Of a stretch of 64,000 nt of DNA, positions 11,601 to 52,775 are shown one piece after another; the first letter of the stretch is position 1; each line of letters opens with the position of its first letter. The position numbers and the translations under genes were made by a program. This stretch comes from Clostridia bacterium (GTDB lineage Bacteria; Bacillota; Clostridia; Oscillospirales; QAKW01), in NCBI GenBank assembly GCA_017464525.1, contig JAFTZM010000022.1, positions 30,562 through 94,561 on the forward strand, given 5' to 3'. The notes beneath the pieces are model-generated. The model had not been told where the DNA came from and did no database searches. It saw nothing but the letters and a program-made list of their open reading frames with translations.

Positions 11601-12965
11601 GTGCAGTCATTTAAGGATGTTTGGGAAAAAGCGCTCGTTCAGTTGAAGAATGAGTTGAATGTAACTTCATATGAAAGCTGGATCAAGCTATTGATTCCCA
11701 TGAAAATGGAAAATGATGTAGCTTTCTTTTGCGTTTCTACTCTTTTTCAAAAGAGTATCATTGATAAAAAATATAAATCAGATGTGGAACGCGCAATATC
11801 GGATGTAATGGGCTTTGAGGTCACCGCCCAGATCATGACAGAGGATGAGGTCCCGCCCCGGTTCCGGGAGGCGGCCCAGAGAAAGAACGAAGAGGTGAGC
11901 ACTGCTCTGCCCAAGCTGGAGGAGGAGGAGATCCGGGCCTTTAACGCCAAGACCAACCTGACCTTTGATAATTTCGTTATCGGTAAAGAAAATGAATTTG
12001 CCCATGCGGCGGCGCTGGCCATCGCCAATAACCCGGCCAATGCTTATAACCCCTTCTTTTTGTACGGGCACAGCGGGCTGGGCAAGACCCACCTGATCAA
12101 CGCCATTGCCAATAAAATTCAGGAAAATAATCCCAATGCAGTGATCATGTATGTAAAGGGCGATGAATTTACCAGCGAGCTGATCGATGCCATCCAGTTC
12201 AACAATCAGCGCCAGTTCAAAATGAAATACCGCAAGGCGGATATTCTGCTGGTGGATGACGTGCAGTTCATCAGCGGTAAAAAGGCCATCCAGGAAGAAT
12301 TTTTCCATACCTTTGATGCCCTTTATGAAAACAATCGCCAGATCATCCTCACCAGTGACCGCCCCCCCAAGGAGCTGATCACGCTGGAGGAACGGCTGCA
12401 GACCCGCTTTTCCATGGGTCTGATCGCCGATGTGCAGCCCCCCGAGTATGAGACCCGTGTAGCCATTATCAAAAAGAAGGCTGCCATGTATAACCTCCAA
12501 GTACCGGAGGAAGTGGTGGAGCTGATCGCCACCAAGATCAAGACCAATGTACGGGAGCTGGAAGGTACCATCAAAAAGCTGAAGGCCTATAACTCCCTGT
12601 GGGGCCAGACCCCCACCATGGCCCTGGCTAAGGACGCCATGGAAGCGGTGATCAAGGAAAATACCAATTCCGCTATTACCCCCGCCTCTATCATCGATCA
12701 GGTCTCCCGTTACTTCAACATCTCCATTGAAGATATCAAGAGCGAAAAGAGAAAGACCGAGATCGTATTCAGCCGGCAGATGGCTATGTATATCATCCGG
12801 GAGTTGACCAACCTTTCCCTGCCGGAGATCGGCAAGGAGATGGGCGGTAAGAATCATACCACCGTTCTTTATTCCATCCGTAAGTTAGAGGATGCCATGA
12901 AGCAGGATCCCAAAACCGCCAAGATCGCAGCCGAGCTTATCGAAAATATCAAGAAATCTTATTAA
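11601..12965 (+). CDS. dnaA: chromosomal replication initiator DnaA
   Basis: GTG start with RBS; AAA+ Walker A GHSGLGKTHL; C-terminal DnaA-box binding domain. Confidence 0.95.
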   Translation: MQSFKDVWEKALVQLKNELNVTSYESWIKLLIPMKMENDVAFFCVSTLFQKSIIDKKYKSDVERAISDVMGFEVTAQIMTEDEVPPRFREAAQRKNEEVSTALPKLEEEEIRAFNAKTNLTFDNFVIGKENEFAHAAALAIANNPANAYNPFFLYGHSGLGKTHLINAIANKIQENNPNAVIMYVKGDEFTSELIDAIQFNNQRQFKMKYRKADILLVDDVQFISGKKAIQEEFFHTFDALYENNRQIILTSDRPPKELITLEERLQTRFSMGLIADVQPPEYETRVAIIKKKAAMYNLQVPEEVVELIATKIKTNVRELEGTIKKLKAYNSLWGQTPTMALAKDAMEAVIKENTNSAITPASIIDQVSRYFNISIEDIKSEKRKTEIVFSRQMAMYIIRELTNLSLPEIGKEMGGKNHTTVLYSIRKLEDAMKQDPKTAKIAAELIENIKKSY

Positions 12966-13185
12966 CAGAGTTTTCTGTTTTTAACACCCGGTATTTAACA
13001 TTTTACACAGACTTTTAAACAGTTAACATAATTCTGTGGAGGGTCTGTGGAATGAAAAGGCGTGTATCAACAGGCTTTTAACGGGCAATTTTCGGCATGG
13101 GAATCCGTAAATCGGGGATTTTTGCCGGTTTTGCACACAACAACAACTACTACTACAATTAACAGATAAAAGAAAGGAACGACGC

Positions 13186-14304
13186 ATGAAATTTTCTTGT
13201 GACAGAAACGTTCTGAATGAGGCGATCAACATCGTGCAGAAGGCCGCCAGCCAGAAATCCACCATCCCGGCGCTGGAGGGTATTCTCATTGAGATCGAAA
13301 AGGACGGGCTGGTCCGGTTCAGTGCCTACGATCTGAGTATTGCCATCAACTATGAATTTCAAGCAGATGAATTTGAAGACGGGGAAGTGATCCTCTCCTC
13401 CAAGCTCTTCGGTGATATCGTCCGGAAGTTGCCTTCCTGCCAGGTAACGGTGGAGATCGACGATAAGACCTTCCTCACCACCATCCGGGGCGGCAACGCC
13501 AGCTTTACCATTTCCGGTATGGATACGGATAATTTTCCTGCCATGCCGGATGTGCTCAGCGATGATGGCATCCAGCTTACCTATAACGACTTTAAAAATA
13601 TGGTGCGGCAGACCATCTTTGCCGTTTCCATCACCGATCTGAAGCCGATCCTGACCGGTGTGCTTTTTGAGTTGGCCGAAAACGGATATGTCAATGCGGT
13701 GGCGGTGGATAATTTCCGGCTGGCCATCCGCAAGGCCCCCTATAAGCAGGCTATGGGGAACTTTTCTAAGGTGGTCATTCCTTCCCGTGCGTTGAAGGAG
13801 ATGACCAATATCCTGCCGGACAGTGACGAGGAGATCGTGACCATCACCAACAGTAAGAATTTCGTTTCCTTCCGCTTTGGCGGGGTGCAGCTGGTCTCCC
13901 GGTTGCTGGAGGGAGAATTTCTGGATTATAAGGCCGCTATCCCGAAGGACTTTAAATTCCAGGTCCATGTAAATGTGCGGGATTTCACCCGCATCATCGA
14001 CCGGGCGGCGCTGATGGCTAATTCCACCATCATCAGCCCCATTCGCTGTGAATTTGATTTTGATCATATCAATATCGCTACCGTATCCAATCTGGGTAAA
14101 TTCAGCGATTCCATCCAATGCGAGCCCTTCGCCAATAAAATGGTGATCGGTTTCAACTATAAATATATGCTGGCAGCCCTCAGCGCTTGCGATGATGAAG
14201 AGATCGTGATCGAGCTGCAATCCAACCTGGCGCCCATCATCCTGCGGCCGAAGGATAAGGATGATTATCTCTTCCTGGTGCTGCCCTTGAGAATGAAGGA
14301 ATAA
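13186..14304 (+). CDS. dnaN: DNA polymerase III beta sliding clamp
   Basis: 372 aa, MKFSCDRNVLNEAINIVQKA start; synteny after dnaA. Confidence 0.95.
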   Translation: MKFSCDRNVLNEAINIVQKAASQKSTIPALEGILIEIEKDGLVRFSAYDLSIAINYEFQADEFEDGEVILSSKLFGDIVRKLPSCQVTVEIDDKTFLTTIRGGNASFTISGMDTDNFPAMPDVLSDDGIQLTYNDFKNMVRQTIFAVSITDLKPILTGVLFELAENGYVNAVAVDNFRLAIRKAPYKQAMGNFSKVVIPSRALKEMTNILPDSDEEIVTITNSKNFVSFRFGGVQLVSRLLEGEFLDYKAAIPKDFKFQVHVNVRDFTRIIDRAALMANSTIISPIRCEFDFDHINIATVSNLGKFSDSIQCEPFANKMVIGFNYKYMLAALSACDDEEIVIELQSNLAPIILRPKDKDDYLFLVLPLRMKE

Positions 14305-14307
14305 AAC

Positions 14308-14517
14308 ATGAACCGATTATTGATCAGAGATGAATACATTCGGCTTTGCGATGCCCTGAAGCTTTCCGGCGAGGCCGATACCGGAGGCATGGCCAAAATG
14401 ATGATTCTGGCCGGGGATGTGCAGGTCAACGGCGAGGTCTGCCTGCAAAAGGGCAAAAAGCTTTATCCCGGCGATCGGTTCACCTTCGGCGGGCTGGAAT
14501 ATCTCATTGTACAATGA
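14308..14517 (+). CDS. yaaA: S4-domain RNA-binding protein YaaA
   Basis: 69 aa, conserved position between dnaN and recF. Confidence 0.8.
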   Translation: MNRLLIRDEYIRLCDALKLSGEADTGGMAKMMILAGDVQVNGEVCLQKGKKLYPGDRFTFGGLEYLIVQ

Positions 14518-15612
14518 TCATCCGTCGGCTGCGACTGGAAAATTTCAGAAATTTTGCTGATGAGACCTTCGATTTTACCGATGGCATCAATATTTTAGCG
14601 GGCAATAATGCCCAAGGTAAGACCAACTGTATCGAGGCGATCTACTTTTGCTCCTGCCTGAAAAGCTATCGGGTGCTGAAGGAGGAGCAGCTGATTCGCT
14701 TCGGGGCGGAGACAGCGGCCATTACCCTCACCTTTCTGCTGGAGGGCCGGGAAGAGGAATTAAAGATCCTTTTTGCCCGGGGCAGACCCAAGGAATTTCG
14801 CCATAACGGCCTGGTAGTACCAAGGCTGCGGGATCTGCTGGGCTGCTTTCAATCGGTGATCTTTACCCCCGATCACCTGAACCTGATCAAAGAAGGCCCC
14901 CATAAACGGCGGAGTTTTTTGGATATGGCCCTTTGCTCTCTGGAGCTTCAATATACCGATCAGTTGCTGAGCTATCAGAAGATCCTGAAAAACCGCAATG
15001 CCCTGCTCCGTCAATGCCAGAGCGATTATGCCTTGAGTGAAATGCTGGAGATCTGGGATGAAAAGCTGGCAGAGGCCGGCTCCTATATCGCCGAAGCCCG
15101 GCAGAAGTACATTATGCAGCTTTCGGCCTTTGTCAAGGAATACTACAGCGAGATCTCCCAGGGTTCGGAAAAGCTCAAGCTGATCTATCTGAATCAGTTT
15201 ACCAAGGAGGAGGTCAGCCGGGAGGAATATGCCCGGTTGTTCCGGGAGCGGCTCCGCAGGATGCGGGACCACGATATTACCATGGGTCAGACTATGAGCG
15301 GCATCCATAAGGATGATATTTTAATTTTACTTTCCGGCAAAAGCATGAAGTTTTTTGCCTCTCAGGGGCAGATCCGCTCGGCGGTGCTGGCCATGAAGCT
15401 GGCAGAGGCGGAATGTATCACCCGCCTGCAGGGCAGCGAGCCGGTGCTGCTGTTGGATGATATCCTATCGGAGCTGGATGCCCACCGGCAAAAATTTATC
15501 TTTCAGAAAATGAACGGCCGGCAGACGGTGCTTACCACCTGTGAATTGGGTAAGATCCGTAAAAAAGGCGATAAAGTCTTTTCCATCAAGGAAGGAAAGG
15601 TGGCTAAAATAC

Positions 15613-17827
<2,215 letters not shown>

Positions 17828-17841
17828 GGAGGTGCTTCAAA

Positions 17842-20331
17842 ATGGCTAAAAATGAGATCCACGATACCGCAAGCTATGAAAACCAGGTCATCGTTCCTGT
17901 TGATCTGGAAAAAGAAATGAAGAACTCCTATCTGGACTATGCCATGTCTGTCATCGTCGGCCGTGCGCTGCCCGATGTGCGGGACGGTCTGAAACCGGTC
18001 CACCGCAGAATTCTTTACGCCATGTATGAGGATAACCTGACCAGCGATAAGCCTTTCCGGAAGGCTGCCACCTGCGTGGGTGACGTGCTGGGCCGGTACC
18101 ATCCCCACGGTGACGCTTCTGTTTACGATGCGCTGGTGCGCCTCGCCCAGAACTTCTCCCTCCGTTATCCTCTGGTAGAGGGTCACGGAAACTTCGGTTC
18201 CATCGATGGCGATCCCGCCGCTGCCTACCGGTATACGGAGGCCCGGATGTCCAAAATCTCCAATGAGATGCTGAAGGATATCGAAAAGGATACCATCGAT
18301 TGGGATCCCAACTTTGATGAGACCCGTAAGGAGCCCCATGTGCTGCCTGCCCGGTACCCCAACCTGCTGGTCAACGGCTCCTCCGGTATTGCCGTCGGTA
18401 TGGCCACCGATGTGCCGCCCCATAACCTGCGTGAGGTGGTAGACGGTGCTGTGGCTCTGCTGGATAACCCGGATATTGAGGTCGATGAGCTGATGGAATA
18501 CATCAAAGGCCCCGATTTCCCCACCGGCGCCATCATCATGGGCCGCAGCGGTATTCGCCAGGCTTATAGAACCGGCCGGGGCAAGATCTATGTCCGGGCC
18601 CGGGCAGAGATCGAAGAATGGAAGGACGGCCGGTATAAGATCGTTGTCACCGAGATCCCCTATATGATCCGGAAGGCAGCTTTGATCGAAAAGATCGCCG
18701 ATGAGGTCAAGACCGACCGCATCCCCGGCATCTCCGATATCCGGGATGAATCGGATAAGGACGGCCTGCGGTTCGTGGTGGAGCTGAAAAAGGAAGCCAA
18801 TCCGCAGGTGATCCTGAACCAGCTTTATAAATTCACCGATATGCAGGCGACCTGCTCCATCATCATGCTGGCGCTGGTCAACGGCGTGCCTAAGGTGCTC
18901 AACCTGAAGCAGATGCTGGAGGAATACCTGCTCCATCAGAAGGATGTCATCCGCCGCCGCACCGCCTTTGAGATCAAAAAGGCGGAAGCCAGAGCCCATA
19001 TCTTAGCGGGCTTGCTGAAGGCCATCGATCATATCGATGAGGTCATTGCCATCATCCGGGGCTCTAAGCATATTGCCGATGCCAAGGAAAGATTGATGGA
19101 ACGGTTCGATCTGGATGAGATCCAGGCGCAGGCCATTGTGGAGATGCGGCTGGGCCAGCTCTCCGGCCTGGAGCGGGAAAAGATCGAAAATGAATATAAA
19201 GAGCTCTCTGCTAAGATCGCCGATCTGAAGGATATCTTGGCTCACGACTATCGGGTTTCTGCTATTATTAAGGAAGATATGCTGGAGATCGCCCGGAAAT
19301 TCGGCGATGCCCGCCGCACCGAGATCGGGCACGGCGAGATCGGCCTGGAGGATGAGGATCTGATCCCCGTGGAGGATTGCATCTTCACCATGACCGAAGC
19401 CGGATATATCAAGCGCCAGCCGGTGGGCACCTATAAGGCTCAGCACCGGGGCGGCCGGGGCATTACCGGTATGAAGACCAAGGAAGAGGATGTGGTGAAG
19501 GATCTCTTTGCCGCCTCTACCCACGATACCATTTTGTTCTTTACCACCATGGGTCGGGTCTATAAATTAAAAGGATATGAGGTTCCCGAAAGCTCCCGCA
19601 CCGCCAAAGGCACCAATGTGGTGAACCTGCTGCCCCTGATGAGCGGCGAGCGGGTCAACGCCATGATTCGGGTGGAGAATTTCGATGCCGATGGCTATCT
19701 GGTGATGGCCACCCGCAACGGTACCGTGAAAAAGACCCCCCTCAGCGATTATTCTAATATCCGCAAATCCGGTGTCATCGCCATCCTTCTGGATGAAGGG
19801 GACGATCTGATCGATGTGGTGTATACCACCGGCGAGGATAATATCATGTTGGCCACCCATGAAGGCCGGGCCATCCGCTTCCCCGAATCGGAGGTACGCT
19901 CCATGGGCCGTGTTACCCGGGGCGTCCGGGGCATCCGCATCGCCGAGGAGGATTACCTGGTGGGCATGGTACTCCAGCGTGAGGGTGCCAACCTGCTCTC
20001 CATCACCGAAAATGGCTACGGTAAGCGTACAAATGTGGAGGAATACCGGCTGCAGAACCGTGGCGGTAAGGGTATTACCAATTATAATATTACCGAAAAG
20101 ACCGGTAAGATAGCCGCCATTCGTATGGTTGAGGATGGTGAGGATCTGCTGCTGGTCACCAGCGGCGGTGTGATCATGCGTACCCAGATCGAAGAGATCT
20201 CTACCCTCAGCCGTGTGACGCAGGGTGTCCGGGTGGTTCGTTTGGACGAGGGCGTGAAGGTCATCGATATCGCCGGCGCAGCCCGTGAAGAAGAGGAAGA
20301 TGTTCCAACGGAAACACCCGTTGAAGAATAA
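17842..20331 (+). CDS. gyrA: DNA gyrase subunit A
   Basis: Motifs [24 protein letters not shown] and QRDR-like HPHGD; 829 aa. Confidence 0.95.
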
Positions 20332-27534: not shown

Positions 27535-27608
27535 TTAGGGTGGAGTGAGTGAAAGGCACCGAAATATACCGCTTTGAGGCGGGTCCGGATCTCTCACTCT
27601 ACCCTATA
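27535..27608. repeat. TA-flanked imperfect-palindrome repeat, truncated copy A (70 bp; same family as 32707, 34244, 41498)
   Basis: TTAGGGTGGAGTGAGTGA...TCTCACTCTACCCTATA. The inner 50 bp is about 90% identical to the right end of copy B. TA on both sides. Confidence 0.7.
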
Positions 27609-31307: not shown

Positions 31308-32693
31308 TTATTCTTCTTCGTTTTTGGGCTCTTCTGCTTCCTTACCCAGCAGGGTGGGCAACTCCATGCCGGCCTGCTTAAAGAGGTCATTCAGCGGGGG
31401 AACCGCCCCCAGCAGCCCGGAAAGAAAGTTGGCGGTGGTGCCTTTTCCGTCGGCACCGGTGCCGTTATCCCAAACGGTGATCTTATCGATCTTGATGTTC
31501 TTGATGGCATCCACCTGGATCTCCATCAGCTCCTGCAGCTTATCGGCGATCAGCAACTTCACTGCCGCATCCGCATCGCCGCCAGCGGCCTCCACCAGCG
31601 CACGCATACCTTCGGCCTGCTTTTCCAGGATCTCCTGAGCACCCCGGGCCTGCGCCTCCATCTTGGCGTAGATGGCGTCGGCTTCACCCTTTGCCTTGCG
31701 GCGGATCATTTCGGCCTCGGCCTCGGCTTCCAGCTCGGCCTGCTTCTTCTGGATCTCGGCCTTTACCAGAACGTCGGCTTCCTGCGTGGCTTTTTCCAGG
31801 CGGGCACGGGTCTCTTCTGCTTCCTGCTGGGCCACATAGGCTTCTTGCTTGGCTTTGGCAGCCTGCACAGCCTCGGCGGCGGCAGCGATACGCTCGGCCT
31901 CTGCCTGCTCCTCACGGCGCTTGGCATCGGAACGGGAAACGGCGATCTTGGCGGCGTTTTCACCCTCGATGGCCTCTGCATCGGCGGCGGAAACCTGCAC
32001 ACGCTGGTCACGGCGGGCGTTGGCCTGGCCGATCTCACCGTCACGGTCCTTTTCAGCCACGCTCTTCTTGGCGTCGTTGATGGCCTTGGCGGCGGCTTCC
32101 TTACCCAGCGCTTCGATGTAGCCGGATTCGTCGTTGATATCGGTAACGTTTACGTTGATCAGCCGGAGACCGATCTTTTTCAGCTCGATCTCCACATTGT
32201 TGGAGACCGCAATGAGGAACTTATCACGGTCGGTGTTGATCTCCTCAATGTCCATAGTGGCGATGATCAGACGCAGCTGACCGAAGATGATATCCTTTGC
32301 CAGCTCCTGGATCTCGTTCATCTTCAGCCCCAGCAGACGCTCGGCGGCGTTCTGCATGGTGCCAGGCTCGGTGGAGATGCCCACGGTGAACCGGGAAGGT
32401 ACATCCACACGGATGTTCTGCTTGGAAAGGGCATTTTTCAGATCTACATTAATGGAAATGGGGGTCAGATCCATGTACTGGTAAGATTGGATCACGGGTA
32501 CAATGAAGGCGGCGCCGCCATGGATACACTTGGCGCTGCGGGGCTGACCGTCCTTATCGCTGCCCACCTTACCGTAAATGACCAAAACCTTATCGGAAGG
32601 GCACTTGCGGTACCGGGAAAGAATGGCGATGACCGCCGCGAATAAAACTACTACGATGGCAACAATTCCAAATAAAATTCCTGCTCCGTCCAT
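31308..32693 (-). CDS. floT: flotillin-like SPFH/band 7 protein
   Basis: True start MDGAGILFGIVAIV (RBS AAGGAGGA); SPFH domain; Ala/Glu-rich coiled-coil with EA repeats; C-terminal flotillin tail. Confidence 0.8.
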   Translation of the reverse strand: MDGAGILFGIVAIVVVLFAAVIAILSRYRKCPSDKVLVIYGKVGSDKDGQPRSAKCIHGGAAFIVPVIQSYQYMDLTPISINVDLKNALSKQNIRVDVPSRFTVGISTEPGTMQNAAERLLGLKMNEIQELAKDIIFGQLRLIIATMDIEEINTDRDKFLIAVSNNVEIELKKIGLRLINVNVTDINDESGYIEALGKEAAAKAINDAKKSVAEKDRDGEIGQANARRDQRVQVSAADAEAIEGENAAKIAVSRSDAKRREEQAEAERIAAAAEAVQAAKAKQEAYVAQQEAEETRARLEKATQEADVLVKAEIQKKQAELEAEAEAEMIRRKAKGEADAIYAKMEAQARGAQEILEKQAEGMRALVEAAGGDADAAVKLLIADKLQELMEIQVDAIKNIKIDKITVWDNGTGADGKGTTANFLSGLLGAVPPLNDLFKQAGMELPTLLGKEAEEPKNEEE

Positions 32694-32706
32694 AATAAAA
32701 TCCTCC

Positions 32707-32984
32707 TTAGGGTAGAGCGAAATATTCGAACGCCGTTTTAAAAAGGCGGATTTTCGCTCATTCTTTGTTAAAATACTCGCCAATACGCCAGTATTGGCTG
32801 TGTTTTTGCCTTGACTGAACAAAAATCCGCACTTTTTAAGATCTTTGACCTCACAGCGAGGAGATTTCGAGGGATTTTTGCTCGATTTAGATGCAGCAAG
32901 GCTGGCGCCTTGCAAGGATAAAGCGAGTGAAAGGCACTGAAATATGCCGCTTTGAGGCGGGTTCGGATATCTCGCTCTACCCTA
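32707..32984. repeat. TA-flanked imperfect-palindrome repeat, full copy B (278 bp) inside the nfeD-floT operon
   Basis: Termini TTAGGGTAGAGCGA ... TCTCGCTCTACCCTAA; about 80% identical to the reverse complement of copy C; internal conserved hairpin GCCAATAC-GCC-AGTATTGGC. Confidence 0.75.
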
Positions 32985-33629
32985 ATCTTTTTCTACCACT
33001 AACATCCCGTCCCGGATGTCAATAATACGAACCTGAGTGCCTACCGCCAGCGCTTCCCCGGCGGTGATGGCTTCGTGCTCGGTAAAGGTGCCCTGCAGGG
33101 TGAAGGTCACCTTTCCGTGGCCTGCTCCATCTGCGGGGATGGGCAGGTAAACGGTTGCGGAGGCCCCTAAGGACAGCCGCAGATCCTGAGTGCCGTTTTC
33201 AGCCAGCCGGGCAGAGACCTGCACCAGCTTCGCCAGAAGCAGCATGGCCAGAACCCCTAAGATCCCGCCGATGACCAGCGCTACCCAAAGCTTGCTGCCG
33301 GTGTGCAATGAAACAATGGCGCTCCAGCCGAATACCGTTAAAAAGGCGATCACCGTTTGCAGGGTAAAAAGCCGCATGGTGGTGAAATCCGCCGGATTGC
33401 CACCGTCCAGAAAATCGAAGGGATCATCGGGAATATCCGCCGGCACATCACCGTCGATATCCAGATCCAGGCCGGAAATGTCGCTGCCGTCCACTCCTGC
33501 GCCGCTATCGCCAAATCCCAGCAGCAATAAAACCGTCTGGATCAACAGCACCACAGTGGCGGGTACCGCAATGCAATATAAAACCTTTAACGCTACGCTC
33601 AGCGTTTCCCACCAAGCAAACATGAGCAT
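32982..33629 (-). CDS. nfeD: NfeD-family membrane protein (flotillin-associated, YuaF-like)
   Basis: N-terminal TM segments; acidic linker; C-terminal OB-fold-like region; immediately upstream of the flotillin gene, as yuaF is to floT. Confidence 0.65.
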   Translation of the reverse strand: MLMFAWWETLSVALKVLYCIAVPATVVLLIQTVLLLLGFGDSGAGVDGSDISGLDLDIDGDVPADIPDDPFDFLDGGNPADFTTMRLFTLQTVIAFLTVFGWSAIVSLHTGSKLWVALVIGGILGVLAMLLLAKLVQVSARLAENGTQDLRLSLGASATVYLPIPADGAGHGKVTFTLQGTFTEHEAITAGEALAVGTQVRIIDIRDGMLVVEKD

Positions 33630-33639
33630 CCTCCTTTCG

Positions 33640-33656
33640 TGTAAACTCTATTTACA
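33640..33656. promoter_or_regulatory. operator-like inverted repeat TGTAAA-N5-TTTACA (site 1)
   Basis: Exact 6-bp arms; divergent nfeD/xre intergenic region. Confidence 0.4.
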
Positions 33657-33732
33657 GTTTATCGAAAAATTTCCTATTTGTCAATGATTTTTTAAAAATT
33701 TCCTCTTGATAATTTTTGGATTTTCTGTTATT

Positions 33733-33765: not shown

Positions 33766-34218
33766 ATGAACGCCGTCAAGATGGGAAAGCGTCTCCGGGA
33801 GGCCCGGCTTGCCAAAAAAATGACACAGGCCGAGGTGGTGGATGGCTTTATCACCCGCAATATGCTCAGCCAGATCGAAAGCGGATCGGCGACCCCTTCT
33901 ATGAAAACCTTGGAGTTTCTGGCAGGGCGGCTGGATCTTTCCATGGCCTCGCTGATGGCCGAGGACGAGCCCCGGGAGCCGATGGAGCGGCTTTTTGCTG
34001 CCAAGATCGCCCTAAAAATGCAGGAGACCGATGAGGTGCTGCGGCTGTTGCAGGATCCCCGGGAAGACGATCCCTTTTATGATGAATATTGCGCCATTCT
34101 GGCCAGAGCCTATGGGCTGAAGGCCGAGGCGGGCAACGACTCCGCCGCCCAGCTGGCCGCCTATTACGGCAGCCTTGGAATTTACCGCCGGGAAGCGGAA
34201 CTGGAAATGGAACTGTAA
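33766..34218 (+). CDS. XRE-family helix-turn-helix transcriptional regulator
   Basis: HTH_XRE motif LREARLAKKMTQAEVVDGFITRNMLSQIESG; helical C-terminal domain. Confidence 0.7.
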   Translation: MNAVKMGKRLREARLAKKMTQAEVVDGFITRNMLSQIESGSATPSMKTLEFLAGRLDLSMASLMAEDEPREPMERLFAAKIALKMQETDEVLRLLQDPREDDPFYDEYCAILARAYGLKAEAGNDSAAQLAAYYGSLGIYRREAELEMEL

Positions 34219-41404: not shown

Positions 41405-41497
41405 ATGCTCACGCTCCTTTGAACCTATTATTGACAGCGTGTGTCTTTTTCATTATATGATTGAAAAAAATCCGTTATTATGTTATTATTTATAAGA

Positions 41498-41774
41498 TAG
41501 GGTGAGCAGTCAAACCAAGACTCGCCGTAAAGCAGTAAATTTCGCTGCTTTTTGCTCTGATCGTTCTTGCAAGGCGACAGTTTCCTTCACCCAATCGAAA
41601 CAAAAATCCCTCAAAATTCACTCGCTTTACGGTCATGGATTTTGAAAAGAGCGGATTTTTGATCAATCAAGGCACAAAACACAGCCAATACTGCCGTATT
41701 GGCGAGTAATTTAACGAAGAGTGAGCAAAAATCCGCCTTTTCAAAACGGAGTTCGGGTTTGACTGCTCACCCTA
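41498..41774. repeat. TA-flanked imperfect-palindrome repeat, full copy C (277 bp, reverse orientation relative to B)
   Basis: Termini TAGGGTGAGCAGTCAAAC ... GTTTGACTGCTCACCCTA (18-bp perfect TIR); internal hairpin GCCAATAC-TGC-CGTATTGGC. Confidence 0.75.
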
Positions 41775-47137: not shown

Positions 47138-48493
47138 GCCTTCTTTTTCAATATAGACCGTTTGATCCGGAAGGAGCGTGAAGTTTTCCGAATCCCAATC
47201 GGTGAGGGAGATGAAGTGGTCCTCATCGATGAGGTAGACCTTTCCGCCCCGGAGGGTGGTGGTAACCTCTTGGGTCTCGCCGGTGGTGTTGGTGATGAGG
47301 GCGCCGGCGGTGTTTTCTCCGATGGCGGCCACGGCGTAGAGCTTATAGGTGTCGCTCTCGCAGAGCACCTGCGTGCCCATGGCGTAAAGCTTGCCGAAGG
47401 CCTTGAAGGAATAGTAGGTACTTACCGGGATGGCCGCATAGGGTTGGAAGAATCCGGCATAGCGCCCGGCATTCAATCGGGCATCGTAGTAGCAGAGCAT
47501 ATCGGTGGGGCAGTTCTGCAGAGCACACATCATAGCGGCCACCTGCGCCGAAGCGTAGGAGGTGCCGTGCTGGATCTCGGCGTGGGGGCCGTTCCATTCA
47601 TTAAGCATGGTTTCCAGCTTTCCGTAGCCGCGGGCGGTTAAAAAGCGACCCATAAACTTGGAGATCTCTACCGTCTGTTCCACGGTGGCATAGCTATGCC
47701 AGCTGAAAAAGTCGATGGGGGAGTTGTGCTCCTTGATGTAGGCGAAAAAGCCCTCTAAAAACTCCATCCGGAAGTAACCGATCTTGGTGGGGTTGATCAG
47801 CGCACCTGCTACGCTGGGGTCAACTCCGTACTTTTCGCAATCATGGAAAACCCCGCGGGGACAGCAGGCACCGTAGCCGCCTACCTTGATGGTGTCGCCA
47901 AAGCAGGCCTTCAGGTGCTTGGCTGCCACATCATAAAGCTCGTAGAACTGCTCGTTGGTGCCGAGCCACATCTGATTCTCGCCGGGTACACCGTTATCGG
48001 GCTCGTTCCAGATCTCCCAGTATTCGATGTTCATATGAAAACCGTCTGCCCAGCCCTCGTTGTAGTGGCGGATGACGTGCTCGCAGATGCGGGCCCACTT
48101 ATTATAGTCCTTGGGCGGGTAGATGTGGTAGGCCTTGATATGAAACTGATTTTCAATGGTGACCCCCAGACGGAAAATGGGCTTAACACCGTATTCCTCC
48201 ATCCCCTTCAGCAGATAGTCGGTAAAAGCGAAATCGTAATTGGCGGGGTCAGTCTCGTCCGCATCGAAATTGCGGAAGAGGTTGGGGATGTCCACAAATC
48301 GGTTGCCGCCGAAGGCACCGCCTACATCGTGGAGCCGGGAGTAGGGGATATTTGCTTCCTTGAGAAAGTTAATGGGGGAAAGGTCCAGCGATTTAAAGCC
48401 GCCTGCCATGGGCGGCTGCCCCACTGCGTGCATAGGCTTGATCCGGCCGATGGTTTGGCTCAGATCGATTTTAACAGTTGTCATAGAAAACAT
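47129..48493 (-). CDS. glycoside hydrolase, clan GH-A (GH39/GH30-like)
   Basis: WEIWNEPDN catalytic acid/base motif typical of clan GH-A. Confidence 0.55.
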   Translation of the reverse strand: MFSMTTVKIDLSQTIGRIKPMHAVGQPPMAGGFKSLDLSPINFLKEANIPYSRLHDVGGAFGGNRFVDIPNLFRNFDADETDPANYDFAFTDYLLKGMEEYGVKPIFRLGVTIENQFHIKAYHIYPPKDYNKWARICEHVIRHYNEGWADGFHMNIEYWEIWNEPDNGVPGENQMWLGTNEQFYELYDVAAKHLKACFGDTIKVGGYGACCPRGVFHDCEKYGVDPSVAGALINPTKIGYFRMEFLEGFFAYIKEHNSPIDFFSWHSYATVEQTVEISKFMGRFLTARGYGKLETMLNEWNGPHAEIQHGTSYASAQVAAMMCALQNCPTDMLCYYDARLNAGRYAGFFQPYAAIPVSTYYSFKAFGKLYAMGTQVLCESDTYKLYAVAAIGENTAGALITNTTGETQEVTTTLRGGKVYLIDEDHFISLTDWDSENFTLLPDQTVYIEKEGSN

Positions 48494-48603
48494 CTCCTTT
48501 TGAGATTATTCTAACATAGAAAATGATGATGTCAATAAAAACGGTTACGAAACATTTTCGTAAAAAATCCCCGCCTGTATTTGCAGGCGGGGATATATTT
48601 CTT

Positions 48604-49065
48604 TCAGGAGAGTACACCTGCGGCACTGCAGGTGATGGTGACCGATTGTTCCACTGTTTTGGTGGCAATGCCAAGGAAGTACCGCTTGGCGGTGATATCA
48701 CCGATGGCTTTATTGCCGCTCTTGGTAGCTGTTTTTTCTGTGATTTTCCAATTGGAATCAGTGATAGAGGTCGTAATGCTGGCTACGGTGCAGGTGGCCG
48801 AGCTGCCGGTATAGGTAAAGGTGGCGCTCAACGTTGCTTGCCAAATTTCTCTACCGCTTTCACTACGGTAAACAATACTTTTTTGCCCGCTTTTGGTGTT
48901 GGTGGCTCTCGTTGCCGGGCCTTCTGTTACTGCGCCGATCTCCAGATAGGAGCCATCCTCAAAATAAATAACCTCCGCCGGTTCTGCCGGGCATACTGCC
49001 GAAGCAGGAAGGCAACAGAGAACTGTGCATAAAACTGTTACTAATAAAATGCTGATTTTTTTCAT
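48604..49065 (-). CDS. secreted beta-rich protein (third gene of the PadR-HAAS module)
   Basis: Signal peptide; Ser/Thr-rich. Confidence 0.4.
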   Translation of the reverse strand: MKKISILLVTVLCTVLCCLPASAVCPAEPAEVIYFEDGSYLEIGAVTEGPATRATNTKSGQKSIVYRSESGREIWQATLSATFTYTGSSATCTVASITTSITDSNWKITEKTATKSGNKAIGDITAKRYFLGIATKTVEQSVTITCSAAGVLS

Positions 49066-49081
49066 GGCAACTTCCCTTGCG

Positions 49082-49483
49082 TTATTCCTCGGTCACTTCA
49101 ATAGGGCCTTCTATGTATACATTTCCTCTGTGCTCATCATGTGCATCGATCAGTTCGATGATCAATGTGGTGGCCAGCATGGCAAGAGTGATGATCACCG
49201 CTACGATCACCGCCTTGCGAATGTCAATGGCCTTTCGGACAGTTTGCGGCTCTGCCTCTGAAAGAAGCTGCCGGGCAATTTCCTTGGGATCTCCGAAATG
49301 ATCGTAGATCTCCCGGATATCCGTTACAGCGTGCTCCTCTGTATAGTCGTAGATACTGTTGCTGATATCCCGGATGATCTCCTTTTTTTGCCGTCGGGGG
49401 CAAACCAGATTTTTCTTGATCTGTAAAAGAAATTGCCGAATTTCCTTATCTAAATTATGCATCATTGTTTTCCTCTCTGCCAA
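49082..49483 (-). CDS. DUF1700/HAAS-domain membrane protein (PadR-associated sensor)
   Basis: N-terminal helical HAAS-like region and C-terminal TM; immediately downstream of PadR. Confidence 0.55.
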   Translation of the reverse strand: MAERKTMMHNLDKEIRQFLLQIKKNLVCPRRQKKEIIRDISNSIYDYTEEHAVTDIREIYDHFGDPKEIARQLLSEAEPQTVRKAIDIRKAVIVAVIITLAMLATTLIIELIDAHDEHRGNVYIEGPIEVTEE

Positions 49484-49832
49484 GGATCAGCGCAATTCCC
49501 TTGCTGATCTCGTCGTACTCCATGAGAATTCGTTGCAGATATTCCCTTCCTGCCGGTTCAATGTGATAGTATTTTCTGGTTCTTTTTTTCCCCACCAGCT
49601 TTGAATAGGTAGAAAGATATCCTGCATCCACCAGCTTATAAAGGATCAGGTAAAGGGTTCCTTCCAGCATGGTGAACCGCCCGCCGCTTTTTTCATTGAA
49701 CAGCTGCGTGATCTGGTAGCCGTAAAGATCCTCCTCGCAAAGTAAATGCAGGGCGAGGATCTCTGTGCAGCCACGTTTAAAATTTTCCTGATTTTGACTC
49801 AACCACCCACCCCCATTTCCTATCTTAAGCAT
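49455..49832 (-). CDS. PadR family transcriptional regulator
   Basis: Winged-helix PadR motif region ILALHLL...LYGYQITQL...LEGTLYLILYKL; start uncertain (ATG 49832 or TTG downstream). Confidence 0.75.
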   Translation of the reverse strand: MLKIGNGGGWLSQNQENFKRGCTEILALHLLCEEDLYGYQITQLFNEKSGGRFTMLEGTLYLILYKLVDAGYLSTYSKLVGKKRTRKYYHIEPAGREYLQRILMEYDEISKGIALILGREENNDA

Positions 49833-49868
49833 ATTATAACTGTAATTATAATTTTTGTAAATACTTTT

Positions 49869-49897
49869 AGTGTAAATATATGTTGACAAAATATATT
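49869..49897 (+). promoter_or_regulatory. sigma-A-like promoter TTGACA-N17-TATACT upstream of the C10 peptidase gene
   Basis: AT-rich island leader. Confidence 0.4.
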
Positions 49898-50041
49898 TAT
49901 ACTGTTATACTGAAAATGTAAGATCAAGGAAAGGGTTGAGTCCAATGGTTCATGAATGAACTGTCTATTATGATGCATATACAAAGACAGATTTTTAGGC
50001 CTGTTTATGTTGTCTGAAAATTTACAATAACTATAAAAAAG

Positions 50042-51279
50042 ATGAAAACTTTAATGAAACGTATACGAGTAATTGCGTTTACCGCTATTCTGGTTTTGCT
50101 TCTGCAATCTGGAACCTTTGCTGCAACACCGAAAACAACAATTACCCCTAAACAAGCTGCTGATCTTGCAATTTTTTATTATTGCCTTAATGCCGACGGC
50201 GATAACGTGATTGAAATTGATGAATATATTGCTACTCCTCTTTATGATGACAAAGGAAACGTTACATATTACAGTGTCGATTTTTTCTATCAGAAAACAG
50301 CAAAAGGATACGTTGTTGTAGGCGCCGATTTAAATTATATTCAATGTCCAGAGTTGTGTCCGGGTGAGCAGTTTATCTATTACTCTAATGCACTTAACGG
50401 AATGATTACAATCTATTATAATCCCTATGAGGTCTTTTTTGTTAATGAAAAAGAGGCTACATTTTATGATCTGTATAATGAAGTGTTAGAAGAAAAAGTT
50501 GATGGTACAGTTTATGAAGGAGATTTACAGGAAAATCGTGAACTATTACAATTGGTTTCCAGAACAATTGATCCATTGACGGACCGAAAAGTCTTTACTC
50601 AGCATCCGGTAACATATTTGGAAAGCTTAGGTTATACATCGGTAACAGGCGGTGAGTATGGAACGATAGAATCGGCAATGGATAATGCTGGTGCATTTAA
50701 TTTGATGTTTACAGTTACACAGAGTAATCCGTATGTATTATCTACAGGAACAAAAGTAGATAATGGTGGCCATTGTGCGATAACACAGATATCGAATATA
50801 ATGAGGTATCTCAAATCAAAATATAGTTTAAATTATCCTTCTACATATGAAAAAACGTTTGATGCCGTACTAAATAAAGCAGTATCTTTAGGATACTTTA
50901 ATAATACTTATAATGGATCTGGAGTAAGCGGGAGCAATATTTCAAATCTGGAAAAGTAGAGAAAAAATCCGGACAATATGCAGACTGGGATTTTTTGACT
51001 AGTAAGATTGATGCGGGTATCCCGGTTATATTAGGACTTAGTGCTGAAAGTAACACTTTTACATATACTTCTCACTTAACTGTAGCGTTTGGTTATAATT
51101 CTGTAAGCGGATGGAGAGATAATAATTATGAGATATATTCATTCGCAAAATTATATGATGGACATCCACAAAGAGGAAAATGCTATGTGTGCTGGGATAT
51201 GTTGACTTATTTTGAAACTGATAACACAGATGGGAGCCAGATTATACGTGAAATGTGGGCGCTTTATCCAAAAAAATAA
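50042..51279 (+). pseudogene. streptopain-like (peptidase C10 family) secreted cysteine protease, split by a frameshift near 50914-50956
   Basis: Signal peptide; Cys motif NGGHCAITQISNIMRYL...NYP in frame 2 (resembles the streptopain region around the catalytic Cys, recalled from memory). His motif SHLTVAFGY and GW...N lie in frame 1, which stays open upstream to 50914. About 35% GC. Confidence 0.5.
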
Positions 51280-51922
51280 TAAAAAAAACAATACCACAAC
51301 CAGTGCAATTATCAGTTGTATCCTGATATTACTTTCAATACTGTTCACCGGATGCTCTGCAAGGGCGTTCCGGCCGGAACAGTTAAATGTTGAAGGGGCA
51401 TCAAATGGGGTGTTAAACGCCGAATATGCCCAGCTGTTCTGGGAGGAGATCGTGCAAAAGGCGGCTCCGGATGAAAAGACCGAGGCGGAGGCAGACTATA
51501 CCTTTACTCTGATGGAGGCCCCCGGAGAAAACCGGCGGATCTGCACCTACCGTCTTTCGGTGGAGGAGCAGCTGCTGATGGGGGAGGAAGGCTGCTACCG
51601 CCTGACTCCGGACGCTCTTGCCCTGGCGCAGGAACTGGCCTATCCCGGCAATTACCTTTCAACCTCTGCTGTTGAATATGATCTGCAGGAAGGAACCTAT
51701 ATGGTGATTACCGCTCAGTATGACGATTGTATTCTGGCTTCGTTGTCCGACTCCCCAGAGATCAAGATCAAACTCAACACCAGTTCGAATTATTTTAACC
51801 TGGGAGATAAGGTGACCGGGGATCTTTCATATTGTAAAAAGGACGGCAATCGGATGGAGGCCGATTGCAGCGGCTTGTATACAGAAAAAGAACTCTCCGA
51901 ACGCCCGAATATAGCTTATTAA
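51230..51922 (+). CDS. hypothetical lipoprotein
   Basis: Lipobox LFTGCSA; start lies inside the 3' end of the C10 fragment across two poly-A runs; start uncertain. Confidence 0.4.
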   Translation: MGARLYVKCGRFIQKNNKKNNTTTSAIISCILILLSILFTGCSARAFRPEQLNVEGASNGVLNAEYAQLFWEEIVQKAAPDEKTEAEADYTFTLMEAPGENRRICTYRLSVEEQLLMGEEGCYRLTPDALALAQELAYPGNYLSTSAVEYDLQEGTYMVITAQYDDCILASLSDSPEIKIKLNTSSNYFNLGDKVTGDLSYCKKDGNRMEADCSGLYTEKELSERPNIAY

Positions 51923-51928
51923 AAAGTG

Positions 51929-51955
51929 ACCCCCGCCTGCAATGCAGGCGGGGGT
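51929..51955. terminator. bidirectional terminator hairpin
   Basis: ACCCCCGCCTGC-AAT-GCAGGCGGGGGT. Confidence 0.55.
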
Positions 51956-51959
51956 CGTC

Positions 51960-52775
51960 TTATATGGCGCCGAGGCGTCTCAGAATAGATTGTGCAGCGG
52001 CGGGATCGTCGCTGGTAAACATCCGGCAGCCGAGGTCAAGGGCTTTTTGATACATTTCCTCCGTATCCGGCACCAGAATGCAGGGGAGGATCTCCTGCTC
52101 TGCGGCATAGGCGTAATCTTCGGCAAAGCCTGCGGGCTGCTCTTCGTCCTTGCGCCAGATGGCCGCCCAATCCAGAAAGGATTCCTGGGGCCGTGCGGCG
52201 TGGTCCTTGGGGCGAATGTAGTCCAAATAGCCGTGAAGCACAAACTTACCCGGCCATTTTTCGGCGCAATACTCTAAATTCTGCTCCGAAAAGGAGTTCA
52301 TGATGCTCTTTTCCGCCATCCCGTATTGATCCAGCAGCGACGCCAGCTTATCGATGGTGGCAAAGGCACGCTCCCGGCCGAAGTCCATGGGGTATTCCTT
52401 CAGCTCCCAATTGATGACCGTATGGGTGGGGCTGACCAGCTCCAAAAACTCCTCCACAGTGGGGATCTGTACCCCCTTGAATTCCTTCCCCTTCCAGAAG
52501 CCGGCATCCAGGGCTTTGATCTCAGCGAGGGTCATCTCGTCCACCAGACCTTTGCCGTTGGTGGTGCGCTCCACATCTCGGTCGTGGATGAGGACGAGGT
52601 GACCGTCCTTGGTCATCCGTACGTCGGTCTCAATGGCGTCCAGCCCCAGCTCCACTGCCGCCCGGAAGGCAGGCATGGTGTTTTCGGGAAAGTGGGCCCG
52701 ATCCCCCCGGTGGCAGCCCAGCAGTATGCGATGGCCGTCCAGCCGGGGGTTGTTGGCACGTAATTTATCGGCCAT
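51960..52775 (-). CDS. glycerophosphodiester phosphodiesterase
   Basis: GDPD motifs HRGDRAHFPENT and ETDVRMTKDGHLVLIHD. Confidence 0.8.
   Translation of the reverse strand: MADKLRANNPRLDGHRILLGCHRGDRAHFPENTMPAFRAAVELGLDAIETDVRMTKDGHLVLIHDRDVERTTNGKGLVDEMTLAEIKALDAGFWKGKEFKGVQIPTVEEFLELVSPTHTVINWELKEYPMDFGRERAFATIDKLASLLDQYGMAEKSIMNSFSEQNLEYCAEKWPGKFVLHGYLDYIRPKDHAARPQESFLDWAAIWRKDEEQPAGFAEDYAYAAEQEILPCILVPDTEEMYQKALDLGCRMFTSDDPAAAQSILRRLGAI

What the first reader, a model, noticed from the sequence alone, without database searches (positions are those of the whole stretch)
32694..32998. Repeat copy B sits inside the nfeD-floT operon, supplies the nfeD stop codon and abuts the floT Shine-Dalgarno
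The 278-bp element lies between nfeD (stop at 32982-32984) and floT (start 32693). In other Firmicutes the homologous yuaF-floT pair forms one operon. On the coding (minus) strand the element terminus TTAGGGT supplies the TAG stop of nfeD (GAT-TAG-GGTAGAGCG). The other terminus runs straight into the floT RBS (CTACCCTAAGGAGGATTTTATTATG). The same ACCCTAAGGA junction upstream of a start codon recurs at copy A next to the SDR gene. The element is therefore co-transcribed as about 280 nt of structured RNA between two cistrons. It could modulate coupling, mRNA processing, or flotillin expression.
Basis: partly seen in the sequence, partly recalled or inferred. Interest (0 to 1): 0.55.

Follow-up and report, generated by a model that had tools for sequence, protein, structure and literature searches.

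The report
Mobile structured repeat hugging ribosome-binding sites
The 277-bp sequence between nfeD and floT is a real insertion of a previously undescribed, highly folded mobile repeat from gut Clostridia that nearly always lands, in one orientation, on the TA just before a gene's ribosome-binding site, leaving the upstream stop codon and the downstream start signals intact.

Summary
A 277-bp element (32708-32984, minus strand) lies between an NfeD-like ORF and a flotillin-like ORF. Its first base completes the nfeD TAG stop, and its last TA abuts the floT AGGAGG. Four related nfeD-floT loci lack it (2-27 nt spacers), so it is an insertion.

It belongs to a family with at least 85 copies in 77 loci from 31 Acutalibacteraceae/Oscillospiraceae/Clostridia gut MAGs. 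No Rfam family matches. Copies are 276-278 bp, TA-flanked, and fold as a 20-bp terminal helix closing two long hairpin domains. Covariation is strong: 49 of 76 pairs show compensatory changes.

Placement is not random:
- An SD-like pentamer lies 0-2 nt after the 3' TA in 27 of 64 copies, against 1.75% of intergenic TA sites.
- A gene start follows in sense in 38 of 60 copies; 2 of 59 have a divergent start at the other end.
- The junction TAG is the upstream gene's stop in 17 of 59 copies.
- One orthologous insertion is 95% conserved where flanking third codon positions are 71-72%.

Best reading: a new MITE-like repeat carried inside mRNAs. The mobilising enzyme, the cause of the orientation bias and any host function are unresolved. 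Co-transcription is inferred, not shown.

The parts
32708..32984 (-). Element copy B, 277 bp including both flanking TAs; full-length family member
   Evidence: nhmmer 1-278, E=2.5e-82
32982..32984 (-). nfeD stop codon TAG = flanking TA (32983-32984) plus first inner base G of the element
   Evidence: same arrangement in 17/59 family copies
32963..32982 (-). 5' strand of terminal helix P1 (GGGTAGAGCGAGATATCCGA)
   Evidence: helix 1: 19 of 20 pairs with compensatory changes
32710..32729 (-). 3' strand of terminal helix P1
32779..32798 (-). Near-invariant apical hairpin GCCAATAC-TGGC-GTATTGGC of the 3' domain (P3); followed by GAGTATTTTA; flagged terminator-like on both strands
32708..32709 (-). 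3' flanking TA
   Evidence: TA in 40/49 copies
32702..32707 (-). floT Shine-Dalgarno AGGAGG, pre-existing (shared with empty site in L079)
31308..32693 (-). Flotillin-like (Band_7/SPFH) ORF, ATG at 32691-32693
32982..33629 (-). NfeD-like ORF (215 aa)
33656..33684 (-). Promoter-like site TTGACA-17-TAAACT upstream of nfeD; only one on this strand near the pair
27536..27606 (-). Copy A: 71-bp mini-element (5' module only, own TA...TA ends), 14 nt upstream of the SDR gene ATG; a -10-like TAATAT lies 1 nt upstream
41498..41774 (+). Copy C: full-length element, 12 nt upstream of the SpoU-methylase (TrmL-like) ATG
41461..41489 (+). Promoter-like site TTGAAA-17-TG-TATTAT; puts the predicted transcript start at about the first base of copy C

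Best explanation
Copy B belongs to a previously undescribed family of non-autonomous, MITE-like mobile repeats. Full-length copies are about 277 bp, with shorter modular derivatives such as the 71-bp copy A. The family lives in Acutalibacteraceae/Oscillospiraceae gut bacteria.

The element entered the tightly coupled nfeD-floT junction at the TA of ...GAT-TAA-GGAGG.... One TA now lies on each side. The nfeD stop changed from TAA to TAG, and the floT SD and spacing are untouched.

It is presumably transcribed from the nfeD promoter as part of the operon mRNA (inferred). There it folds into a self-contained Y-shaped structure: a 20-bp terminal helix clamps the two ends, and two long hairpin domains branch from it. 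Flanking signals stay exposed.

Shown: the insertion, family membership, the fold with covariation, the TA flanks, and the SD-adjacent sense-oriented placement.
Inferred: duplication of TA by a transposase, co-transcription, and near-neutrality for floT.
For: - Empty sites: NfeD homologues at 76%, 66% and 63% identity have nfeD and floT 2-27 nt apart with no element. L079 reads GATAAGGAGGATT where the window reads GAT-TA[element]TA-AGGAGGATT.
- A same-strain contig, L078, has the identical filled site.
- Family size: 77 loci from 31 MAG assemblies, up to 10 exact-core copies per assembly, many at contig ends. There are about 85 blastn copies at 78-88% identity.
- Thirty-nine copies are 272-280 bp long.
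- Flanking TA: 46/49 copies at the 5' end and 40/49 at the 3' end.
- The junction TAG is the in-frame stop of an upstream ORF of at least 80 codons in 17/59 copies. In most of these the 3' flank starts with A or G, by inspection of the and 52 listings. So a TAA/TAG stop pre-existed and the TA is target-derived.
- No coding capacity; no Rfam hit.
- Structure: 96.6% of cells paired. 49 pairs have double changes, against 22 +/- 2.3 in shuffles and 15-21 with the slid control.
- The fold is equally good on both strands, as expected for a DNA-level palindromic element.
- Modular derivatives exist: copy A, and L077, which lacks the 5' domain.
- Rearrangement breakpoints fall at element edges.
- Predicted RBS accessibility is unchanged by the element.
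Against: - No transposase partner was found.
- The termini are the most variable part of the family (GGGTGAGCA, GGGTAGAGC, AAGCAGCGG, AAGCAAACA...), although each copy's two ends stay complementary. The interior is the most conserved part. This is the opposite of a classical MITE.
- Symmetric ends should insert in either orientation, yet sense versus antisense placement at gene starts is 38 versus 2.
- SD adjacency is about 24-fold above random TA choice. Parasitic repeats normally accumulate downstream of genes (PMC3049150).
- An orthologous insertion (L020/L044) is 95.3% identical, while third codon positions of both flanking genes are 71-72%. That implies constraint or gene conversion rather than neutral decay.
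- TA duplication cannot be told apart from a one-sided target plus an element-borne TA.
Confidence: 0.6

Rival explanations
1. Domesticated cis-acting module. The element, whatever spread it, now serves the host as an RNA-level or DNA-level signal placed directly in front of ribosome-binding sites. Candidate roles:
- An RNase III or other processing site in the 20-bp terminal helix, uncoupling downstream from upstream mRNA.
- A 5'-terminal stabilising stem where the transcript starts at the element.
- A weak attenuator.
- A carrier of a palindromic protein-binding site (GCCAATAC-N4-GTATTGGC) that ties many housekeeping genes into one regulon.
For: - In-situ conservation at the level of codon positions 1 and 2: 95.3% against 71-72% at position 3. 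A second pair gives 96.4% against 93.6%.
- Extreme position and orientation bias.
- The conserved interior has a near-invariant apical hairpin.
- Terminal helix length is kept at about 20 bp while its sequence changes.
- In copies A and C, and by eye in several loci, a -10 box puts the transcript start at about the first base of the element.
- Precedents: Correia elements are RNase III substrates, and Neisseria REP2 repeats sit immediately upstream of co-regulated genes (PMC2649163; PMC3184786).
Against: - Downstream genes are functionally unrelated: floT, trmL-like, SDR, and, read from N-termini, clpP, lepA, coaD, lspA, ftsY, trpS and others.
- No strand asymmetry in G:U pairs: 44 versus 43 in shared pairs. 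The antisense fold is slightly better, so an RNA function of the sense strand is not demonstrated.
- Predicted RBS accessibility is unaffected.
- The anti-SD-like motif does not covary with its own flank.
- Conservation rests essentially on one informative orthologous pair and could reflect gene conversion.
Confidence: 0.25
2. The mobilisation mechanism is strand-specific with one-sided target recognition, not DDE/TA duplication. One version is an HUH (IS200/IS605- or RAYT/REPIN-like) single-strand mechanism. The other is an RNA-guided recombinase that homes to the SD sequence. Read on the antisense strand, the element always sits 3' of 5'-CTCCTTA, and its own 3' end is the similar CACCCTA.
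For: - Only one flank is conserved: AGGAG at +1 to +5 in 30-33 of 49 copies, with no consensus on the other side.
- A 19:1 orientation bias that symmetric ends cannot produce.
- Single-strand secondary structure is conserved by compensation, and the fold is slightly better on the antisense strand.
- An internal mimic of the 3' terminus changes with the terminus in each subfamily (read, 29 alignments).
- AG(G) after the TA also occurs in some copies with no gene start (L058, L054, L026, L028).
- Some copies abut TAGGG-like sequences (L025, L027, L066).
Against: - 20-24-bp terminal complementarity is not a feature of IS200/IS605 elements.
- No Y1, DEDD or other recombinase gene was seen.
- In the window, copies A and B are on the minus strand and C on the plus strand on the same side of dnaA. 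Orientation therefore follows the gene rather than replication, though the origin position is only weakly supported.
- The candidate guide motif shows no covariation with flanks.
- The L077 variant lacks the 5' domain where the putative guides lie.
Confidence: 0.15
3. The sequence is not an insertion. It is an ancestral intergenic leader or part of nfeD, lost in the relatives; or the repeat similarity is chance.
For: Loss by precise excision cannot be formally excluded from four empty relatives.
Against: - Three independent related lineages are empty, with spacers of only 2-27 nt.
- The same 277-bp unit sits next to dozens of unrelated genes in 31 genomes.
- Zero matches to the terminus probe are expected by chance.
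- NfeD ends at the family-typical VVEK[DE].
Confidence: 0.02

Closest known systems
Correia repeat-enclosed elements (CREE/NEMIS) of Neisseria
   Same: Small non-coding repeats with about 26-bp inverted ends and TA at both sides. They are often inserted close to or between genes and co-transcribed. The hairpin formed by the ends is an RNase III substrate (PMC2649163, PMC2229807).
   Different: No sequence relation. Correia elements are 100-155 bp with conserved ends and outward promoters. Here the ends vary and the interior is conserved, the size is 277 bp with a three-helix architecture, and placement is almost always sense-oriented directly before the SD.
ERIC/IRU, RUP, BOX, SPRITE and B. 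cereus bcr1 interspersed repeats
   Same: Highly structured, modular, multi-copy, transcribed with neighbouring genes. RUP and ERIC are linked to TA targets (own knowledge; PMC3049150).
   Different: Pneumococcal repeats are enriched downstream of genes and between convergent genes, with about 61% strand bias (PMC3049150). This family is enriched upstream, at the SD and between co-transcribed genes, with about 95% sense orientation.
Neisseria REP2 (CREN) and Borrelia IR repeats
   Same: Repeats located immediately upstream of many ORFs, with internal stem-loops (PMC3184786).
   Different: REP2 carries its own promoter, RBS and ATG and has no inverted ends. Here the SD belongs to the target (shared with the empty site in L079), no internal promoter-like site was found, and the ends are inverted repeats.
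REPIN/RAYT and IS200/IS605-derived PATEs
   Same: Structure is conserved by compensatory change. They act as single-strand hairpins, recognise a target on one side and insert in a fixed orientation (own knowledge).
   Different: Those lack long-range terminal complementarity, are usually found 3' of genes, and are tied to a Y1 transposase. None was seen here.
IS630/Tc1-mariner-derived MITEs
   Same: TA on both sides, inverted ends, small size.
   Different: Insertion of such elements is orientation-neutral and TA choice is broad. No IS630-like partner was found, and terminal sequences are not conserved across the family.

Membership tests
MITE (non-autonomous DNA transposon), TA-duplicating type | Terminal inverted repeats | tested here: met
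   A 20-bp terminal helix is present in every full-length copy, with 94.8% of cells paired.
MITE (non-autonomous DNA transposon), TA-duplicating type | Flanked by TA on both sides, with a single TA at the empty site | tested here: met
   TA at 46/49 (5') and 40/49 (3') ends. The L079 empty site has one TA. In 17/59 copies the junction TAG is the upstream stop. True duplication cannot be distinguished from a one-sided target.
MITE (non-autonomous DNA transposon), TA-duplicating type | Small, no coding capacity, multi-copy and dispersed, presence/absence between relatives | tested here: met
MITE (non-autonomous DNA transposon), TA-duplicating type | Cognate autonomous IS with the same ends | tested here: inconclusive
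   None found in the window or in 0.46 Mb of loci. Full carrier genomes could not be read.
MITE (non-autonomous DNA transposon), TA-duplicating type | Terminal sequences conserved as the transposase binding site; interior free to vary | tested here: not met
   The termini differ between subfamilies while staying self-complementary, and the interior core is near-invariant.
MITE (non-autonomous DNA transposon), TA-duplicating type | Orientation-neutral insertion | tested here: not met
   38/60 sense against 2/59 antisense at gene starts. Post-insertion selection could cause this.
Any Rfam 15 RNA family (riboswitch, leader, ribozyme, intron, omega-RNA/HEARO etc.) | Covariance-model match at or near the gathering score | tested here: not met
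   The only window hit is an unrelated AdoCbl riboswitch. At E<=10 on copy B and E<=1 on five loci there are only hairpin-like miRNA-model noise hits.
Riboswitch / gene-specific cis-regulatory leader | Association with a functionally coherent gene set | tested here: not met
   Downstream genes are diverse housekeeping genes.
Riboswitch / gene-specific cis-regulatory leader | Structure specific to the transcribed strand | tested here: inconclusive
   G:U pairs are 44 (sense) against 43 (antisense) in shared pairs, and the antisense consensus fold is slightly better.
IS200/IS605-type PATE or REPIN | One-sided target motif, fixed orientation | tested here: met
   Only the 3' flank is conserved; orientation bias.
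IS200/IS605-type PATE or REPIN | Subterminal hairpins without long terminal inverted repeats; Y1 (HUH) transposase in the genome | tested here: not met
   Long-range 20-bp end pairing is present.
Correia-like RNase III substrate | Cleavage of the terminal hairpin in transcripts | not testable with these tools
   Needs RNA end-mapping. Only the roughly 20-bp perfect helix is shown.
Intrinsic terminator | GC-rich hairpin immediately followed by a U tract on the transcribed strand | tested here: inconclusive
   The apical hairpin (8 bp, 4 GC) plus GAGUAUUUUA is flagged on the sense strand, and similar or better motifs on the antisense strand. It is weak by consensus rules.
nfeD-flotillin operon | Adjacent, co-oriented NfeD and SPFH/Band_7 genes with a short spacer | tested here: met
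   NfeD Pfam score is below the cutoff (19.7 against 29.1), but homologues are source-named NfeD.

The most novel reading that the evidence does not exclude
The family is not a passive MITE. It is a mobile, structured nucleic-acid module that homes specifically to ribosome-binding sites in one orientation, by a strand-specific or guide-based mechanism, and/or has been domesticated. Under this reading dozens of housekeeping genes, floT included, share a common 277-nt leader or intercistronic RNA with a conserved protein- or RNA-binding hairpin, forming a transposon-built post-transcriptional regulon.
Probability: 0.2. Interest if true: 0.8.

Novelty: new variant of a known kind. Interest (0 to 1): 0.55.

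Why it matters
Bacterial interspersed repeats are usually viewed as parasites that survive where selection is weakest, downstream of genes. This family does the reverse. It sits in the most sensitive few nucleotides of a gene: between the stop codon or transcript start and the Shine-Dalgarno sequence. It does so in one orientation, and at least one orthologous copy is conserved like coding sequence.

- If this reflects targeting, it is a new target-selection rule for a bacterial mobile element.
- If it reflects selection, it is a natural example of a 'structurally insulated' insertion, or of a transposon-distributed leader RNA.

For the flotillin locus, floT expression in this organism probably depends on reading through 277 nt of folded RNA. 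The family also breaks assemblies in these gut MAGs, since many copies lie at contig ends.

Tried and rejected
1. Rfam at gathering and permissive thresholds on the window, copy B and five loci: nothing.
2. G:U strand-asymmetry test for a sense-strand RNA: symmetric (44 versus 43). The antisense MFE is lower in 32 of 39 copies. My early impression of a sense-RNA signature came from predicting the structure on that strand and was wrong.
3. Anti-SD idea. The conserved AAAUCUCCUCG motif could pair with the SD, and copy C has UUCACU opposite AGUGAA. There is no covariation with the element's own flank: native -6.89 versus permuted -6.90 kcal/mol.
4. Orientation filter through RBS occlusion: opening energies are equal for native, flipped and deleted.
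5. Orientation filter through terminators: terminator-like motifs are similar on both strands.
6. Orientation filter through Rho: the sense strand is the C-richer one.
7. Replication-strand explanation: copies A and B (minus) and C (plus) lie on the same side of dnaA. This is weak, with only three copies.
8. Search for an autonomous partner. Motif pairing was too noisy. An all-against-all comparison of the loci found only orthologous regions.
9. Same-species empty allele in JGI metagenomes: 0 hits. The core pattern gave 0 hits in viral contigs and 1 hit in metagenomes.
10. Exact NfeD protein look-up found nothing. A 213-aa version was found.
11. Integron attC, group I/II intron and retron readings were considered and dropped. 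Copies are dispersed next to housekeeping genes, no Rfam intron model matches, and no RT or integrase context exists.
12. Literature: a 2024 MITE review has no mention of SD, ribosome, stop codon or orientation, and no paper on such repeats in Oscillospirales turned up.
Full report
**Observation**

On the minus strand the NfeD-like ORF (32982-33629) ends ...GTG GTA GAA AAA GAT TAG. The TAG is followed without a break by GGTAGAGCGAG.... 277 nt later the sequence reads ...TTTCGCTCTACCC TA AGGAGG ATTTTATT ATG, where the ATG at 32693 opens a Band_7/SPFH (flotillin-like) ORF. Pfam supports the NfeD assignment only weakly (19.7 bits against a 29.1 cutoff). It is backed by source-named NfeD homologues.

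The window holds three related copies:
- B, 32708-32984 (-).
- C, 41498-41774 (+), 84% identical to B over 193 bp.
- A, 27536-27606 (-), a 71-bp version of the 5' module, 90% identical over 63 nt.

A terminus probe finds 3 sites against 0 expected.

**It is an insertion**

NfeD homologues were retrieved and their contigs read.
- A same-strain contig (L078, NfeD 100% identical) carries the identical element.
- The nearest other relative (L079, 76% identity) reads ...GTAGTAGATAAGGAGGATTAATCATGGACGGAGCAGG. There nfeD stops 2 nt before the floT ATG and no element is present.
- Two further lineages (L080/L081 at 66%, L082 at 63%) have 22- and 27-nt spacers.

The flanks align on both sides of the element, GA(T)-TA ... 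AGGAGGATT, so the boundaries are clean. Removing the element and one TA from the window gives GAT TAA GGAGG ATTTTATT ATG. NfeD would then end VVEKD*, matching the VVEK[DE]* C-termini of the homologues. The stop therefore existed before the insertion and changed from TAA to TAG. The element preserves the stop rather than supplying it.

**The family**

An exact 24-nt core (CAGCCAATACTGNCGTATTGGCGAG) occurs in 77 stretches of GTDB species-representative genomes. All are MAGs labelled Acutalibacteraceae, Oscillospiraceae, Eubacteriales or Clostridia, several named from goat, buffalo and cattle gut. By my count of the record names they belong to 31 assemblies, with up to 10 hits in one assembly. 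Many lie at contig ends.

blastn finds about 85 copies at 78-88% identity to B. Thirty-nine are full length at 272-280 bp, mostly 276-278. The core is absent from IMG/VR and nearly absent from the JGI metagenome collection (1 hit). No Rfam 15 family matches.

**Anatomy**

RNAalifold on 41 copies gives three helical parts:
- A 20-bp terminal helix (P1) that pairs the two ends.
- A long-range helix (P2) closing a 5' domain.
- A long 3' hairpin (P3). Its apex, GCCAATAC-TGNC-GTATTGGC followed by GAGTATTTTAAC, is nearly invariant.

Counting pairs gives 96.6% of cells paired. Forty-nine of 76 pairs show compensatory double changes, against 22 +/- 2.3 in shuffles and 15-21 when partners are slid.

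The termini are the most variable part: GGGTGAGCAG..., GGGTAGAGC..., GGGTGACAAG..., AAGCAGCGG..., AAGCAAACA.... Each copy's two ends stay complementary.

The fold is not strand-specific. The antisense consensus is slightly better (-104 against -95 kcal/mol, 92 against 76 pairs). In the 59 pairs shared by both predictions, G:U pairs number 44 (sense) against 43 (antisense). So the covariation proves selection for intrastrand pairing, but not that the sense RNA is the selected molecule.

Read by eye from the alignments:
- An internal segment about 55-70 nt from the 5' end mimics the 3' terminus and changes with it in each subfamily. This explains the 71-bp copy A.
- The P1 arms resemble the basal arms of P3.
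- A variant lacking the 5' domain exists (L077).

**Placement**

The 3' flank is strongly patterned. After the TA, positions +1 to +5 are A30 G31 G33 A30 G31 of 49 copies. The 5' flank has no consensus.

| Measure | Result |
|---|---|
| SD-like pentamer 0-2 nt after the 3' TA | 27/64 copies, against 1.75% of 5,208 intergenic TA sites in the same loci |
| Same-strand ORF start within 60 nt of the 3' end | 56/65 copies, mode 12-14 nt |
| SD plus ORF of at least 80 codons within 40 nt of the 3' end (sense) | 38/60 copies |
| Divergent gene start at the 5' end | 2/59 copies |
| Junction TAG is the in-frame stop of an upstream ORF of at least 80 codons | 17/59 copies |

In most of those 17 copies the base after the 3' TA is A or G, by inspection of the and 52 listings. 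The typical target is therefore the TA of a TAA-GGAG stop/SD overlap, exactly as at nfeD-floT. Where the copy is promoter-proximal, a -10 box often lies just upstream. For copy C, TTGAAA-17-TGnTATTAT ends 8 nt before the element. For copy A, TAATAT ends 1 nt before it.

In the window, A and B are on the minus strand and C on the plus strand, all on the same side of dnaA. Orientation therefore follows the gene rather than the replichore (weak).

**Constraint**

One orthologous insertion, upstream of a signal-peptidase-II-like gene in L020 and L044, is informative. The element is 95.3% identical. The two flanking genes are 94-98% identical at codon positions 1 and 2, and 71-72% at position 3. 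A less diverged pair gives 96.4% against 93.6%. Either the element is under purifying selection in place, or it is homogenised by conversion. Homology between some loci breaks exactly at element edges, so copies also mediate rearrangements.

**How it most likely works**

The best-supported account is a non-autonomous mobile repeat that entered the TA of the TAA|GGAGG junction. It now rides in the nfeD-floT transcript. The only promoter-like site on that strand is upstream of nfeD.

Its self-contained fold leaves the flanking signals alone. Across 34 copies the predicted energy to open the SD-to-start segment is 4.98 kcal/mol native, 5.04 with the element inverted and 4.75 with it deleted. At copy B the native value is higher (8.2 against 5.0), so a modest local effect on floT is possible. 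A weak terminator-like hairpin (8 bp plus GAGUAUUUUA) lies in the sense strand and could attenuate read-through.

None of this is measured. Co-transcription, processing and any effect on flotillin are inferences.

**What the simple MITE model does not explain**

- Symmetric ends should insert both ways, yet orientation is about 19:1.
- Random TA choice plus tolerance should favour gene-distal sites, as in pneumococcal BOX/RUP/SPRITE (PMC3049150). Here the SD-adjacent site is about 24-fold enriched.
- The ends vary while the interior is conserved.
- A copy is conserved in place.

I tested RBS occlusion, terminators, Rho-type composition and anti-SD pairing as causes of the orientation bias. All were negative or uninformative. 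Two rivals therefore stay open: domestication as a cis-acting RNA or DNA signal, and a strand-specific, one-sided-target (HUH-like or guide-based) mobilisation. No transposase partner could be sought properly, because only about 0.46 Mb around the copies was readable.

**Comparison with known systems**

In behaviour it is closest to Correia (CREE/NEMIS) elements: TA-flanked, inverted ends, co-transcribed, RNase III substrates (PMC2649163, PMC2229807). It also resembles ERIC, RUP, BOX and bcr1. In position it recalls Neisseria REP2/CREN repeats (PMC3184786), but it lacks their promoter, RBS and ATG. It shares no sequence with any of them and matches no Rfam family.

It meets the descriptive MITE criteria: inverted ends, TA flanks, small size, non-coding, multi-copy, empty sites. 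It fails two expectations of the class: conserved termini and orientation-neutral insertion. A 2024 review of prokaryotic MITEs does not mention SD, ribosome, stop-codon or orientation effects at all.

**Verdict**

The local curiosity turns out to be the rule of a new, fairly widespread repeat family with unusual placement. I class it as a new variant of a known kind, with moderate interest. It would rise if targeting or a host function were demonstrated.

Noticed in passing
window 59880-60022 (-): AdoCbl (cobalamin) riboswitch, 56.3 bits against a gathering score of 50. It is the only Rfam hit in the window.
   Followed up: no
window 1040-20331: Replication-origin neighbourhood, named from N-termini: mnmE, mnmG and rsmG-like ORFs, then dnaA (11601-12965), dnaN, gyrB, gyrA, all on the plus strand. 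recA/recX-like ORFs lie at 60833-62567. The cumulative GC skew minimum is around 10-14 kb. No tRNA genes in 64 kb.
   Followed up: partly
window 4000-8000 and 48000-52000: Two low-GC stretches (0.42 and 0.43, against 0.52 for the window) holding ORFs with no obvious identity. They may be acquired islands.
   Followed up: no
window 41461-41498: A promoter-like TTGAAA-17-TG-TATTAT ends 8 nt before copy C, so the predicted trmL-like transcript would begin at the first base of the element. Copy A has a -10-like TAATAT 1 nt upstream. In promoter-proximal copies the element seems to fill the whole leader.
   Followed up: partly
L066 ~3275-3300; L016 ~2905-2950 (-); L025 and L027 3' flanks: Head-to-tail or end-like junctions. 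L066 has CACCCTTAGGGTGTAG. L016 has a duplicated left end, TAGGGTGAGCACCTTAGGGTGAGC. L025 and L027 have TA|TAGGG flanks. These suggest a preference for inserting next to sequences that resemble the element's own terminus, and TAAGGAG is itself similar to TAGGGTG/TAAGCAG.
   Followed up: partly
L063 5903-6178 vs L076 902-1177; L016 vs L076 6940-7056: Homology between species stops exactly at the element's 3' edge or in its middle. Copies are rearrangement or deletion breakpoints.
   Followed up: partly
L077 1438-1606 (-); L005 ~611-897 (-); L073 24-309 (-): Modular variants. L077 keeps P1 and the 3' domain but has a short hairpin in place of the 5' domain (about 170 bp). L005 and L073 carry a different palindromic 5' module (GAGAATGAGCATTATATGCTCATTCT).
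   Followed up: no
A3 alignment columns ~121-131 (window ~32858-32868, -): A conserved AAAUCUCCUCG motif is complementary to the Shine-Dalgarno sequence (anti-SD-like). In copy C it is UUCACU and the flank has AGUGAA. No statistical covariation with flanks was found.
   Followed up: yes
window 33766-34218 (+): An HTH_3 (XRE-type) regulator lies divergent from nfeD. The same HTH gene is divergent from nfeD in the related loci L079-L082, so it is a conserved neighbour of the nfeD-floT pair.
   Followed up: no
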